A DNA stretch of 64,000 nucleotides from a virus (taxonomy: Duplodnaviria; Caudoviricetes): positions 160,001-224,000 of IMG/VR virus record IMGVR_UViG_3300044852_000015; one strand, given 5' to 3'. Shown in pieces: positions 7,468-12,999 of the stretch. Below the pieces are notes generated by a model. It did no database searches, was not told where the DNA came from, and worked only from the letters and a program-made list of their open reading frames with translations. Position 1 is the first letter of the stretch. Each line of letters opens with the position of its first letter. The position numbers were made by a program, and so were the translations under genes.

Positions 7468-7511
7468 GGGCATAAAGCCCCTCACCGGATAACCAGCAAG
7501 GGGCTTTGTGC
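7468..7511 (-). terminator. Terminator closing the RNA island (TTATGCC class)
   Basis: AAAGCCCCT...AGGGGCTTT stem followed by TATGCCC on the minus strand. Confidence 0.75.
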
Positions 7512-7514
7512 TTT

Positions 7515-8310
7515 ACACTGGCGTCGGTCAGCTATCTGTGAGTGGAGTCAGGTCCCCTCTCGGCCAACCTAGTGGGGTCGGAGTAGCCAGGCATGTTTTC
7601 CCACCGAGCGCCCCTGACGGCGCAAGGATTACGGCTAGAACTTACGCACCCCTCCAATTGCCCGGCTCGGCTGGTAAAGGTAGGATTCCAATGCGTAAGC
7701 GAAGTGCCGAAACACTTCCCCAAAACCATTCGACAAAACTGGCCCATTCGATCTGAATGGTTTTGAGGCTGCGTTCAAGCGTAGGCCCAACCACATTTAG
7801 GCGCGGAGAGGGCGGGCTGTTGCACAACTTGAACCCTTCGCGGGGGTCCCGTATCCTTTACATCGGGTCTGAGTGCGAGGCAGGTTCCAATGTTTCCTGT
7901 AGTACGTCTGCATTCCAGGATGAGGTTGCGGACGCTCAGCCCTTACCGGGCAGAGATTCATCGCTCCACGGGTTCAGCCGAGAGCAACGATTTAAGACCC
8001 CTGATCCTACCGGCTCTCTGGACAGAGGAGTCACTAGGTTTTGACCGTGGTCAGGGGAATTCAAGCTACCCTCTCTCTTTGAGCTGTCTACACTTCCACA
8101 ATGACTCGGGGTTTGCCCAAGGTCGTGATTTGGGGTTTGGTCCTAAAAGTAGTAACCATTCCTACGACAGACAGGGGATTAGCCTGTGAGGGTACAACAT
8201 AGGGTGAGTGGGAAAGCCTAGACCTTCCAGACAGTAGTGTGACCCGACGGGTTGGAGTCACCTGTCCTAGTGGGTAGATAAAGTCCACTTGGCGTTACCG
8301 CTACACTCAC
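7515..8310 (-). ncRNA. Large structured non-coding RNA candidate (~800 nt, one RNA or several)
   Basis: No credible ORF; many helices (GTGAGTG/CACTCAC, CCCCTGA/TCAGGGG, CAAAACCATTC/GAATGGTTTTG, CTTACGCA/TGCGTAAG); GTAA and TTCG tetraloops and G-U pairs favour the minus strand. Confidence 0.6.
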
Positions 8311-8768: not shown

Positions 8769-9015
8769 GATTAAGCTCCAAAGGATATACAACATACTAT
8801 CCTTTGGTTTACAGAAAGGGTGCCTTCTCTCTACGTCGGGAAGGGTTATGTTCCGTTGCGCAGTACCATGACCTCGGTTGACCGAGAGAAGACATTACTC
8901 ATTTACCCCATTAGTTCCCTTATCCCTGATTACCCTGCGCGTCAGGTCGAACGTAGATAAGGTAGGCGCGACAATGTCGCCTCGTTTTACTTCTGTTCCC
9001 TAAGGAACCTTCTAA

Positions 9016-9147
9016 TGGGCATCCACCGGCAAGACTCGAACTTGCGACCTCCCGACGAACACTTGCGTTAAACCACCTTCACTACTGGAGAGTTAATGGT
9101 GGAACTCAATGCCCGACGAGTGTTCTAACCGACTGAACTACGGTGGC
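9016..9147 (-). ncRNA. tRNA-like RNA with ~70-nt extended anticodon arm
   Basis: CCACCG/CGGTGG acceptor, D arm GTTC-AGTCGGTTA-GAAC, T arm GCAAG-TTCGAGT-CTTGC; anticodon arm replaced by a long irregular hairpin. Confidence 0.75.
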
Positions 9148-9176: not shown

Positions 9177-9398
9177 CTAGTTCACCGGACGCAACTTGGA
9201 ATCGGGCTTCAGATCAATCACGGGCAGGAAGCCTGCACCATCACTGACGTTAAAACCCAGTCCACGAGTTGCGTTGTCGGGATTGGTGTACAGTCGCACA
9301 ACGGATGCAAAGGGTTCCTTGGGTGTGGACAACCAGTACCAGCCGTCTGGGGCGGTAGCTGGGTCAACAAACAAATCTACATCTTCAGGCTTGCTCAT
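9177..9398 (-). CDS. Hypothetical protein
   Basis: Start reassigned to MSKPEDV after an AAGGG RBS; the longer listed ORF overlaps tRNA-Ser. Confidence 0.65.
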   Translation of the reverse strand: MSKPEDVDLFVDPATAPDGWYWLSTPKEPFASVVRLYTNPDNATRGLGFNVSDGAGFLPVIDLKPDSKLRPVN

Positions 9399-9421
9399 CA
9401 ACGTACCCTTATCTATCAAAT

Positions 9422-10101: not shown

Positions 10102-10171
10102 TGCTTTATCGGGAATCGAACCCGAGTGAGCCGCCTGTGTGGCAGCCGTTCTACCATTGAACTATAAAGCG
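10102..10171 (-). ncRNA. Atypical tRNA (Gly-like body, aberrant anticodon loop CACACAG, no CCA)
   Basis: D arm GTTC-AATGGTA-GAAC, T arm TCGGG-TTCGATT-CCCGA; A33 in place of U33; C1:A72 mismatch. Confidence 0.7.
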
Positions 10172-10450: not shown

Positions 10451-11269
10451 TTATTGAGGACGGCGGTTGTAGTTCACAACCTTGACTTCGAGTTCAATGA
10501 ACAACTCCATCGGGTAATCGTCCGGGAGGTTCACCGACACCGAAGTATTGAAGGTTGCCGGGTTGATACCGATGCTGAACGGGGCTTTGGCAATGTTGCC
10601 CAACCAGCCGTTGATGATCCACTCGCGCTGATGGAGAATAGGTCGTGAATGGTTGATTGCAACCTCCACACCGTCACGGGTGACGATGCGGATCAGCTTG
10701 ATGGACTCAATGGAGTCAGTCAAGTCTGTGTCTTTACCGAGGGCTTGAATCAAGCCATGGAGGTTCATACGGGAACCATCCTTCAGCGGGATGCGAACCA
10801 CGTCAGGACCTAGAGCTTCCACAACCTCTTCCAGGATCTGCCAGTCGTCAGCCAGTTGATCCGACTGTGCCGGAATCCACGGAGTGAACATCCCCTGAGC
10901 AGTTTTCATGCCGATCCATGGGGCGTAGGTCACGTTGATGTCAGCGCCCAAGATGCGAGCACCAACGTCGTAATGTCCAGCACCAACATACACCAGCCAC
11001 ATGTTCTTACCGTTCCACGAAGGACGGGTAACGCGCTTGCCTTGCTTCAGAGCTTCGATAGCGAGACCGAAGTTCAGAGCGTTGCACGGACGGTAGCTGT
11101 CCTCGAACACGTCTTTAGGCGACCAGGACTGGTGACCGTTGTCGTATTCCACAAGGTAGCCTTCATCGGCACCGTTTTCGTCAGCGGGAAGTTCCCAGCC
11201 TTTGAGTTGGTTGTAGTCCAACCGAGACATCGGAGTTCCGATAACCTTCTTGGTACCAATGTAGTTCAT
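10451..11269 (-). CDS. DUF2829 (Tad2-like) domain protein with extra N- and C-terminal regions
   Basis: NFGLAIEALKQGKRVTRPSWNGKNMW...PWIPAQSDQLADDW is the DUF2829 signature; preceded by the common YIGTK...EGYLVEY...SWSPKDVFE domain. Confidence 0.8.
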   Translation of the reverse strand: MNYIGTKKVIGTPMSRLDYNQLKGWELPADENGADEGYLVEYDNGHQSWSPKDVFEDSYRPCNALNFGLAIEALKQGKRVTRPSWNGKNMWLVYVGAGHYDVGARILGADINVTYAPWIGMKTAQGMFTPWIPAQSDQLADDWQILEEVVEALGPDVVRIPLKDGSRMNLHGLIQALGKDTDLTDSIESIKLIRIVTRDGVEVAINHSRPILHQREWIINGWLGNIAKAPFSIGINPATFNTSVSVNLPDDYPMELFIELEVKVVNYNRRPQ

Positions 11270-11289: not shown

Positions 11290-11370
11290 GAGGGTCCCCC
11301 TACCGGATTCGAACCGATGCTCGCTACCCACGAAGGGCGGCAGCTCTAACCGACTGAGCTTAAGGGCGAC
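11290..11370 (-). ncRNA. Atypical tRNA (Glu-like stems, ambiguous anticodon, no CCA)
   Basis: D arm GCTC-AGTCGGTTA-GAGC, T arm ATCGG-TTCGAAT-CCGGT; irregular acceptor GTCGCCCT/AGGGGGAC; anticodon arm GCCGCCC-TTCGT-GGGTAGC. Confidence 0.65.
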
Positions 11371-11898: not shown

Positions 11899-12092
11899 GT
11901 AAACGTCCTGAGGAAGATGGACTCTGCGATCACCCAGACTGTACCTGTAGGTGCATCGCGTGTAGGCTCAAGGTTCGTGTAGACAACCATGGGCCAAGAA
12001 CAGTCTTGAGCGTGACGAGCTAGGCTTAGCACTTTAAAGCGCAACCCACTAGGAGACTTGTACTCCCGTTGTTCCTCGATACTCTCTAACAT
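11889..12092 (-). CDS. DUF1653-like small protein
   Basis: YK..SG..F.V...ARH......MVVY..L......WV.....F pattern; GAGGA RBS. Confidence 0.65.
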   Translation of the reverse strand: MLESIEEQREYKSPSGLRFKVLSLARHAQDCSWPMVVYTNLEPTRDAPTGTVWVIAESIFLRTFTLP

Positions 12093-12108
12093 GTTCTATT
12101 CCTCGAAT

Positions 12109-12363
12109 TGGTTCCGGCTTGCTTCCCACCGCTATCGTGGTTCACTAAACTCATGTGTAGCCAGACGACCCGCCGGAGAGGTCTTTAACTAGATACACCA
12201 GTATCCCTGAGGTTCCGAAGAAGGCAGGTACACGATGTATCTCCACTGGACTACGAGTAGGGTGATCCCTCCCAGCGTCTGAACGCCGAGTTAATGCTGA
12301 GGCACGCCCGTAACCGACATTCGCTCAAAGGCAAGTCTAAGTAGGCGTACAGCAAAGGAACCA
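12109..12363 (-). ncRNA. Structured RNA candidate (~255 nt)
   Basis: Ends pair (TGGTTCC..TTGCT / AGCAA..GGAACCA); internal helices GTACGCCT/GGGCGTGC, CTCGGCGT/ACGCTGGG, AGATACATC/GGTGTATCT; C(TTCG)G loop. Confidence 0.6.
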
Positions 12364-12374
12364 TAATTCTACTT

Positions 12375-12519
12375 CCCTTGCACCGAGTGGATTGCTCAGC
12401 ACTTATTTTCCCTGATCCTCCGGGACGGTGGGGACATCGACGCAGTGCCTAGTTTCCCTTCCACAGGGTTACTGGTAACGTTGTCTCACAGGGTAAAACC
12501 ATTACGTAGCCAGCAAGGG
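12375..12519 (-). ncRNA. Structured RNA candidate (~145 nt)
   Basis: CCCTTGC/GCAAGGG terminal stem, short internal hairpins, no ORF. Confidence 0.4.
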
Positions 12520-12707: not shown

Positions 12708-12716
12708 GATAAAGCG

Positions 12717-12834
12717 ACCAGTGTTGTGGGATCGAACCACTGCTAGTTCCCGGACCGCACTAGCTTTCCAATGTGCAAGGTTGACGCGTTGTCAGCTATG
12801 GCCCTACACATTGACCTCCCCGAGGCTCACTGGT
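12717..12834 (-). ncRNA. tRNA-like RNA with extended anticodon arm and long variable arm
   Basis: ACCAGTG/CACTGGT acceptor, CCTC-GGG-GAGG D arm, 12-bp CAATGTGTAGGG/CCTTGCACATTG stem, GCTAGT/ACTAGC arm, GTGG-TTCGATC-CCAC T arm. Confidence 0.7.
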
Positions 12835-12840
12835 ATAAAC

Positions 12841-12999
12841 TGATGCCCCTTTGCTGGATTTGAACCAACACCTATCCGTTCAACCGACTCCGTTTGACGG
12901 GAGAGTTTAGTTACACCCGCCCAGTCAACTCCACCTTGCGGCTCACGTTGCGAATACGAATGCTCTCGGACTGTTCTACCTGACCGAACTCTCAGGGGC
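12841..12999 (-). ncRNA. tRNA-like RNA with ~98-nt branched domain in place of the anticodon arm
   Basis: GCCCCT/AGGGGC acceptor, GTTC-GGTCAGGTA-GAAC D arm, GTCCG/CGGAT stem, GTTGG-TTCAAAT-CCAGC T arm. Confidence 0.75.

What the first reader, a model, noticed from the sequence alone, without database searches (positions are those of the whole stretch)
9016..9147. Second tRNA mimic: anticodon arm extended into a ~70-nt irregular hairpin
The D arm, AGGTC variable loop and T arm are canonical. The anticodon arm continues as CTCG/CGGG, CGGGCATT/AGTGTTCG, TTGAGTT/AACGCAA and CCACC/GGTGG, with G-U pairs consistent with the minus strand. There is a G1:A72 mismatch and the CCA is displaced by about 2 nt. 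Pairing along the whole insert suggests selection on structure rather than decay. The insert is unrelated in sequence to the one at 12.9 kb, so the design appears to have arisen more than once.
Basis: partly seen in the sequence, partly recalled or inferred. Interest (0 to 1): 0.75.

Follow-up and report, generated by a model that had tools for sequence, protein, structure and literature searches.

The report
tRNA-shaped arm of unknown phage RNA
The tRNA look-alike is real but does not stand alone: it is the front half of a roughly 243-base phage RNA whose conserved back half belongs to a widespread, uncatalogued RNA family that nearly always carries a tRNA-shaped arm and cannot decode.

Summary
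The cloverleaf at 9147-9021 (minus strand) of this nucleus-forming jumbo phage is real. Nine orthologues keep 96.6% of pairs, with two-sided changes at 19 of 33, including in the rod that replaces the anticodon loop. The 'displaced CCA' is not a 3' end: it opens the closing helix of a conserved 116-nt four-way-junction RNA (9020-8905). In 32 of 37 such cores, from jumbo and small phages, a strict T arm lies 7-10 nt upstream (background 0.5%). The rod is a variable slot: close relatives replace it with a tetraloop hairpin, and no anticodon is conserved. The same core occurs, circularly permuted, inside a tRNA-Leu-like frame in many (pro)phages, sometimes with a second tRNA-like unit where this one sits. 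No Rfam match, no paper found, no partner gene. Most likely the tRNA frame gives host-RNase 5' maturation and stability to one fused RNA whose core binds a host factor; release of the core after base 73 is the main rival. Expression and function are untested.

The parts
9021..9147 (-). tRNA-like 5' module (acceptor stem, D arm, extended arm, variable loop, T arm, base 73 = U at 9021)
   Evidence: fold; covariation in 9 orthologues
9141..9147 (-). acceptor stem, 5' strand; 9147 is the predicted RNase P cut site and mature 5' end (inferred)
   Evidence: helix 1 (5 of 7 pairs with two-sided changes, partly alignment-dependent)
9122..9138 (-). D arm with invariant 9-nt loop containing GG
9051..9120 (-). 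70-nt rod replacing the anticodon arm; outer helix variable in register, no anticodon loop
   Evidence: replaced by short tetraloop-capped hairpins in L041 and L062
9067..9105 (-). clade-conserved inner part of the rod: 3-bp helix, invariant UUU bulge (9072-9070), 5-bp helix, purine-rich 4x3 internal loop, terminal hairpin
   Evidence: helices 4-6: 7 of 13 pairs with two-sided changes
9029..9045 (-). T arm
   Evidence: 4 of 5 pairs with two-sided changes
9022..9028 (-). acceptor stem, 3' strand (A72 at 9022)
8905..9020 (-). conserved core RNA, four-way junction P1-P4 with capped P4; one copy in the genome
9012..9020 (-). P1, 5' strand (contains the 'displaced CCA'); pairs with 8914-8907
   Evidence: (6 of 8 pairs two-sided)
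8995..9008 (-). P2 hairpin, variable in length
8983..8994 (-). conserved single-stranded junction segment ending in UAAAAC
8964..8982 (-). P3 hairpin, near-invariant 5-bp stem, variable loop flanked by two C
8918..8962 (-). P4 (8962-8955 with 8925-8918) capped by an internal loop, hairpin P5 (8946-8934, palindromic CGCG loop) and conserved UAAUCAG (8932-8926); this cap sits where the embedded form has a whole tRNA-Leu-like frame
   Evidence: (P4 8 of 8 and P5 3 of 4 pairs two-sided)

Best explanation
The element is the 5' arm of one non-coding phage RNA of about 243 nt (9147-8905, minus), made inside a tRNA operon. SHOWN: (1) the arm folds as a tRNA elbow without an anticodon; (2) it is joined, at the spacing of a tRNA's base 73, to a conserved four-way-junction core; (3) across the family the core is the constant part, the tRNA-like arm is nearly always there, and its anticodon position is a free slot (module 69 to about 133 nt, unrelated cargoes); (4) the same core exists circularly permuted inside a tRNA-Leu-like frame, and in about ten cases a second tRNA-like unit occupies the very arm (P1) to which this element is attached, so the window's RNA is that nested form opened just before the inner tRNA-like unit, with the outer frame shrunk to a small cap. 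INFERRED: host RNase P reads the elbow and acceptor stem and cuts at 9147, freeing the RNA from the polycistronic transcript; the tRNA shell and the P1 helix protect both ends so that the RNA accumulates (a natural version of the laboratory 'tRNA scaffold'); the arm stays attached; it is neither charged nor used in decoding. LEAST CERTAIN: the invariant junction bases of the core, together with the elbow, bind a host protein or complex that handles tRNA, so that the RNA acts in trans as a scaffold or sponge during infection; the clade-specific rod with its UUU bulge is an optional extra binding site. My odds: architecture 0.9, arm retained in the mature RNA 0.6, host-factor-binding role about 0.4.
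For: Covariation of the module and of the core (183 cells with two-sided changes against 58.5 shuffled; the top mutual-information pairs are the predicted helices). Strict T arm 7-10 nt before the core in 32 of 37 (background 0.5%) and exactly 8 nt in 26 of 37 (0.13%); all 37 cores begin GC, and only 5 read CCA next. Arm length and sequence vary freely and ARAGORN assigns a different anticodon to each orthologue. Embedded and nested forms. Occurs in unrelated phages: 300-kb Pseudomonas jumbo phages Psa21 and D6, 42-58-kb phages, a Phaeospirillum contig. No neighbouring protein family is shared by more than 8 of 126 loci, which points to a host partner. Engineered tRNA scaffolds made of acceptor, D and T arms with cargo at the anticodon are processed and protected in E. 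coli (PMC3753655).
Against: The fixed base-73 spacing fits cleavage by RNase Z equally well. One tandem core (Vibrio phage, L049) has only a hairpin, not a tRNA, upstream, and L152 shows no adjacent T arm either. No binding partner is identified. Related sequences inflate covariation counts, and the invariance of the central core bases is partly forced by my search patterns.
Confidence: 0.55

Rival explanations
1. Processing leader. The tRNA-like module is a disposable signal: RNase P cuts before it and RNase Z (or an equivalent) after base 73, releasing the 116-nt core as the working RNA, as in plant tRNA-snoRNA dicistrons or the mascRNA of MALAT1 (own knowledge).
For: Exact 7+1 spacing in 26 of 37; no encoded CCA; arm content is free, as expected for a shape-only signal; the core closes on itself with P1.
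Against: In the nested forms the inner tRNA-like unit is the P1 arm itself, so cutting it out would open the junction (L168, L221, L194, L159, L109). The rod is conserved with covariation and an invariant bulge in nine orthologues, more than a throw-away leader needs.
Confidence: 0.27
2. The core is an undescribed self-cleaving ribozyme that cuts at or near the tRNA 3' end, doing the job that HDV-like theta ribozymes do behind phage tRNAs (own knowledge: Kienbeck et al. 2024).
For: Many invariant unpaired bases around a junction; begins with G right after base 73; two short motifs recall hatchet ribozymes (from memory only).
Against: No Rfam ribozyme model matches at E up to 10; no pseudoknot signal in mutual information, whereas HDV-like ribozymes need two; P1 pairs with the far 3' end; the embedded form has no equivalent tRNA-core boundary.
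Confidence: 0.09
3. Stand-alone tRNA decoy: a 132-nt mimic that soaks up anticodon nucleases or uncharged-tRNA sensors through its extended arm.
For: Intact elbow under selection; lies among tRNAs and 1.3 kb from a Tad2-like gene; similar long-armed tRNA frames occur in other phages.
Against: Always fused to the core in its clade; the rod is lost in close relatives (L041, L062); no anticodon loop and no CCA end, which those enzymes and RelA-type sensing need (established knowledge).
Confidence: 0.06
4. A tRNA gene with an intron that is spliced to a working tRNA.
Against: Predicted anticodons differ among orthologues (GAA, CGA, AGA, TTA); central helix is 5 bp, not 4; short alleles end in tetraloops, not a 7-nt loop; no splicing endonuclease or RtcB in the 86%-complete genome; far too short for a group I intron and no Rfam intron match.
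Confidence: 0.02
5. A decayed tRNA pseudogene with a chance insertion.
For: G1:A72 mismatch; weak folding z-score; missed by ARAGORN and Rfam.
Against: Compensatory changes in every arm and in the rod; fixed linkage to a conserved core.
Confidence: 0.01

Closest known systems
YrlA, the tRNA-mimicking bacterial and phage Y RNA (Rfam RF02553; PMC4201824)
   Same: Two-module RNA in which a tRNA-like D/T domain is joined to a second module; found in phages; one member is cut by RNase P.
   Different: YrlA has T before D with a sealed acceptor stem, a Ro60-binding motif and an adjacent Ro60 gene. Here the arm order is that of a normal tRNA, the motif is absent, no Ro60 gene is found and the YrlA model does not match the element.
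tmRNA (SsrA), including two-piece circularly permuted genes (own knowledge)
   Same: tRNA-like domain with a long helix in place of the anticodon arm; the family exists as circularly permuted genes.
   Different: No G3-U70, no CCA end, a true D stem, no tag reading frame; no ARAGORN or Rfam tmRNA call.
T4 species I RNA (rnaC) and species II RNA (rnaD)
   Same: Stable non-coding RNAs of 119-139 nt co-transcribed with a phage tRNA cluster (PMC2330249); rnaC has a T arm.
   Different: rnaC has a long rod in the 5' half and no D arm, and rnaD no T arm; no core motif in the T4 region.
Theta (HDV-like) ribozymes behind phage tRNAs, and hatchet ribozymes (PMC4604424)
   Same: Conserved structured RNA starting right after a phage tRNA-like 3' end.
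   Different: Four-way junction without pseudoknot; no ribozyme model matches; the upstream unit is not a working tRNA.
Engineered 'tRNA scaffold' RNAs (PMC3753655); plant tRNA-snoRNA dicistrons and mascRNA (own knowledge)
   Same: tRNA shell with cargo at the anticodon, or tRNA-like unit used as a processing mark beside another RNA.
   Different: Natural, phage-borne, and fused to one specific conserved core in three topologies.
Embedded tRNA-Leu-like phage RNA family noted earlier by this scan (e1-1920728, e1-084306); unpublished AI notes
   Same: Shares the core: UAAUCAG, P4, UAAAAC and the P3 stem; the CUS-3 copy is the same DNA those notes cover.
   Different: Here the order is circularly permuted, the outer frame is reduced to a small cap, and a separate tRNA-like unit leads the RNA.

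Membership tests
functional tRNA | acceptor, D and T arms with conserved elbow bases | tested here: met
functional tRNA | 5-bp anticodon stem with 7-nt loop and a conserved anticodon | tested here: not met
   70-nt rod; tetraloops in short alleles
functional tRNA | paired 1:72 and a CCA (encoded at 74-76 or added) end | tested here: not met
   G1:A72; positions 74 on are P1 of the core. Whether CCA is added after cleavage could not be tested.
intron-containing tRNA (archaeal-type) | bulge-helix-bulge with 4-bp helix, giving one conserved anticodon after splicing | tested here: not met
   5-bp helix; four different predicted anticodons
intron-containing tRNA (archaeal-type) | splicing endonuclease and ligase available | tested here: inconclusive
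   none in the phage record, which is 86% complete; host unknown
group I intron in tRNA | P3-P7 catalytic core, about 200 nt or more | tested here: not met
   62-nt insert; no Rfam match
YrlA / Y RNA | T arm before D arm with sealed acceptor stem | tested here: not met
   normal arm order
YrlA / Y RNA | Ro60-binding GNCGAA(N)G motif and nearby Ro60 gene | tested here: not met
   (record 86% complete)
tmRNA | G3-U70 alanine identity, CCA end, tag reading frame | tested here: not met
   C3-G70; no call by ARAGORN or Rfam
HDV-like / theta ribozyme | nested double pseudoknot | tested here: not met
   covariation supports a pseudoknot-free junction; no Rfam match
self-cleaving ribozyme (any class) | site-specific self-cleavage | not testable with these tools
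   needs an in vitro assay
STnc100 (RF02076) | match to the covariance model at the element | tested here: not met
   no match at the element in CUS-3, Psa21, TPWB-08, the Vibrio or the Acinetobacter phage, nor in the window
uncatalogued phage core family (embedded form) | UAAUCAG, P4, purine linker, UAAAAC, P3 stem, in covarying arrangement | tested here: met
   order circularly permuted

The most novel reading that the evidence does not exclude
The core is a new class of functional RNA domain (a catalyst, or a binder of a host translation or defence factor) that phages across several bacterial phyla deliver on interchangeable tRNA-shaped chassis. The family has evolved by circular permutation through a nested two-elbow intermediate, and the anticodon position serves as a natural plug-in site for further RNA cargo, the rod in this window being one clade's accessory binding site.
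Probability: 0.3. Interest if true: 0.88.

Novelty: new variant of a known kind. Interest (0 to 1): 0.66.

Why it matters
A strongly conserved RNA core, absent from Rfam and from the papers I could search, is shared by nucleus-forming jumbo phages, small lytic phages and prophages, including a copy in 128 of 5,426 complete E. coli genomes. Its three layouts (tandem, embedded, nested) are a rare natural series of circular permutations that separates the essential bases from the chassis. It shows that some phage 'tRNA genes' in annotations (for example the tRNA-OTHER of phage D6) are heads of longer RNAs. Cultured carriers (Psa21, D6, CUS-3) make end-mapping, self-cleavage and pull-down tests immediately possible, and bear on the old question of what non-decoding RNAs in phage tRNA clusters do.

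Tried and rejected
Rfam scans at gathering and loose thresholds: nothing on the element or the core. BLAST of the element against cultured phages: only short T- or D-arm hits. T4 rnaC/rnaD as the same design: different layout. Intron: rejected. Y RNA: rejected. Presence in P1, P22, phiKZ, PhiPA3, 201phi2-1 and Xoo-sp14: no match by pattern or model; no positive control rang in those searches, so diverged copies are not excluded. Tandem-form pattern in 185,579 prokaryote genomes: none; the shorter core pattern gave 7. Partner protein: none shared. Pseudoknot: none seen. A loose T-arm detector had 17.5% background and was replaced by a strict one. My automatic parse of module lengths failed for six loci, which I did not use. 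P2 was off by one column, so its 25% pairing there is my error; one search shows the right register covarying. Paper searches found no description; the supplement of the 10,006-candidate viral RNA survey (PMC10690425) is not held, so the family may be listed there.

Full report
CONTEXT. The window is part of a 238-kb virus record (86% complete). Its proteins place it among nucleus-forming jumbo phages: a virion protein is 51% identical to that of Xanthomonas phage Xoo-sp14 and about 40% to those of phiKZ-like phages, and syntenic relatives carry chimallin. The element lies on the minus strand in a tRNA cluster, between tRNA-Ser(UGA) and a thermonuclease-like gene.

1. THE OBSERVATION. 9147-9016 folds into a cloverleaf whose anticodon arm is a 70-nt irregular rod. 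ARAGORN and Rfam miss it. Energy alone is weak evidence (z -1.28), so I collected orthologues through neighbouring proteins and DNA patterns. Nine distinct syntenic copies keep 96.6% of the predicted pairs, with two-sided changes at 19 of 33 pairs (7.1 in shuffles; 1-5 when partners are slid), in every arm and in the inner rod. The D loop, the variable loop and a UUU bulge in the rod are invariant. The copies are related, so these counts are not probabilities, but the slide control keeps relatedness and collapses. The insert shows no real similarity to the 12.9-kb insert.

2. THE BOUNDARY IS WRONG. The orthologues are more alike downstream of the cloverleaf than within it. The 'displaced CCA' changes to UCA or ACA, each time with the matching change about 110 nt further on. 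It is the 5' strand of a closing helix. The 116 nt from 9020 to 8905 form a four-way junction (P1-P4, with P4 capped by a small hairpin P5), which is also the minimum-energy fold of the 249-nt stretch. Searches with this core found it in Pseudomonas jumbo phages Psa21 and D6, in 42-58-kb phages and in Vibrio phages. In 30 aligned copies P4 has two-sided changes at 8 of 8 pairs, P5 at 3 of 4 and P1 at 6 of 8; 183 cells change on both sides against 58.5 in shuffles. Mutual information recovers the same helices and no pseudoknot. The genome holds one copy.

3. THE CORE IS TIED TO A tRNA-LIKE UNIT. A strict T arm ends 7-10 nt before the core in 32 of 37 copies (background 0.5%), and exactly 8 nt before it, that is a 7-base acceptor strand plus base 73, in 26 (background 0.13%). 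Four of the five misses have a relaxed T arm; one, a Vibrio phage, has only a hairpin. Outside this set, L152 also lacks an adjacent T arm. All 37 cores start with GC; only five continue with CCA. The anticodon position is free: modules run from 69 nt to about 133 nt with unrelated cargoes, and two close relatives replace the rod with short hairpins capped by tetraloops (L041, L062). With introns allowed, ARAGORN gives four orthologues four different anticodons. So the rod is a conserved but optional, clade-specific cargo, and nothing here decodes.

4. THREE LAYOUTS. Most are an 'embedded' form: acceptor strand, D arm, UAAUCAG, the P4 3' strand, a variable insert, UAAAAC, P3, the P4 5' strand, T arm, acceptor strand. 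Many have a D arm like that of class II tRNA-Leu (compare the phage tRNA-Leu), with P4 in the place of the long variable arm and no anticodon arm; I took this reading from earlier notes of the scan and checked it only by eye. The form sits between Q and the holin gene of E. coli phage CUS-3 and in 128 of 5,426 E. coli genomes. In about ten 'nested' cases the variable insert is itself a tRNA-like unit with an abnormal anticodon arm, attached at P1 (L107, L109, L159, L168, L194, L215, L221 and others). Opening the nested form just before that inner unit and sealing the outer frame gives exactly the order in this window. That the tandem form is a circular permutation of the embedded one follows from strand order; which came first is not established, and that the P5 cap is the remnant of the outer frame is inference.

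5. HOW IT MOST LIKELY WORKS. Shown: structure, linkage, modularity. Inferred from established tRNA processing: the unit is transcribed with the tRNA cluster; RNase P recognises the elbow and acceptor stem and sets the 5' end at 9147; the tRNA shell and P1 protect the ends. An engineered shell of acceptor, D and T arms with cargo at the anticodon is processed and stabilised in E. coli in this way (PMC3753655). I think the arm stays attached (0.6), because in nested forms it is part of the junction and because the rod is under selection. The main rival (0.27) is a cut after base 73 that frees the core, which the fixed spacing fits equally well. What the core does is the weakest step. Its invariant unpaired bases imply a specific ligand or catalysis. 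No protein family lies near more than 8 of 126 loci, and there is no Ro60, splicing endonuclease or RtcB gene in the record, so a host factor that handles tRNA is my best guess (about 0.4); a new ribozyme is possible (0.09). No expression data could be obtained.

6. COMPARISON WITH WHAT IS KNOWN. It works most like YrlA or tmRNA, a tRNA-like domain joined to a functional module, but fails the membership tests of both (PMC4201824). It is not T4 rnaC or rnaD, not an intron, not an HDV-like or hatchet ribozyme by model or topology and not STnc100. Ten paper searches found no description, but the library is incomplete and the supplement of a large viral RNA survey (PMC10690425) is not held. This scan has already met the embedded form several times; those are unchecked notes and not independent support. 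I found no note of the tandem form. One note's claim that the family is in phage P1 was not reproduced with my pattern or model.

7. VERDICT. Real, conserved, non-decoding. Novelty: a new variant of a known kind (tRNA-mimicking domain RNAs), within an uncatalogued family of which this fused, permuted layout appears not to have been noted. Interest 0.66: wide distribution, clean comparative evidence and cultured carriers, offset by unknown function and by the scan's earlier sightings of the sister form.

Noticed in passing
window 12841-12999 (-): Second long-armed tRNA-like RNA (98-nt arm), conserved in L002, L003, L004, L042 and L047 at 77-94% identity; not followed by the core.
   Followed up: partly
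window 12715-12836 (-): RNA with a 7-bp terminal stem, three internal hairpins and a T arm but no D loop; conserved in seven relatives; no Rfam match.
   Followed up: partly
window 8815-8895 (-): Conserved hairpin element directly after the core in most close relatives; in L032, L035 and L041 a tRNA-like unit follows instead.
   Followed up: partly
window 7500-8310: About 800-nt ORF-free block conserved at 69-86% along its full length in many related loci; probably a large structured RNA.
   Followed up: partly
window 11920-12480 (-): Modular non-coding block; its part at about 12092-11969 also occurs in Psa21-like jumbo phages (L057, L066, L075).
   Followed up: partly
window 10102-10171 and 11292-11369 (-): ARAGORN's tRNA-Val(CAC) and tRNA-Arg(UCG) have abnormal anticodon arms and no CCA; both are kept in relatives, and the Val-like loop varies (CAC/TAC context), so they are probably further mimics.
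   Followed up: partly
L033 735-794, L035 975-1034, L041 277-336: tRNA-like units with no anticodon arm at all (10 nt between D and T arms), right after the core.
   Followed up: no
L003 13793-13890, L042 5190-5288: A third long-armed tRNA-like type with a 48-nt near-perfect hairpin and compensating changes between the two copies; absent from the window.
   Followed up: no
window 8934-8946 (-); L053 3247-3365: The P5 loop is the palindrome CGCG in nearly all copies and another palindrome (CGAUCG) in one, which hints at loop-loop dimer formation.
   Followed up: partly
window 9177-9420 (-): About 270 nt with a probable 73-codon ORF sit between tRNA-Ser(UGA) and the element; relatives have only 8-20 nt there.
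   Followed up: no
L005-L028: A D-arm/T-arm pattern with a 55-85-nt gap finds about a dozen unrelated long-armed tRNA-like RNAs in other phages, several in very large phages with 18-36 tRNAs.
   Followed up: partly
L053 2587-2775 and 3171-3365: One jumbo phage carries two diverged copies of the tandem RNA about 600 nt apart.
   Followed up: no
window 10451-11269 (-): Gene whose orthologue in L042 carries a Tad2-like domain, inside the RNA island.
   Followed up: no
L102 1380-1535 (Erwinia phage pEa_SNUABM_4): Diverged embedded-type copy between tRNA-Glu and tRNA-Asp, unannotated.
   Followed up: no
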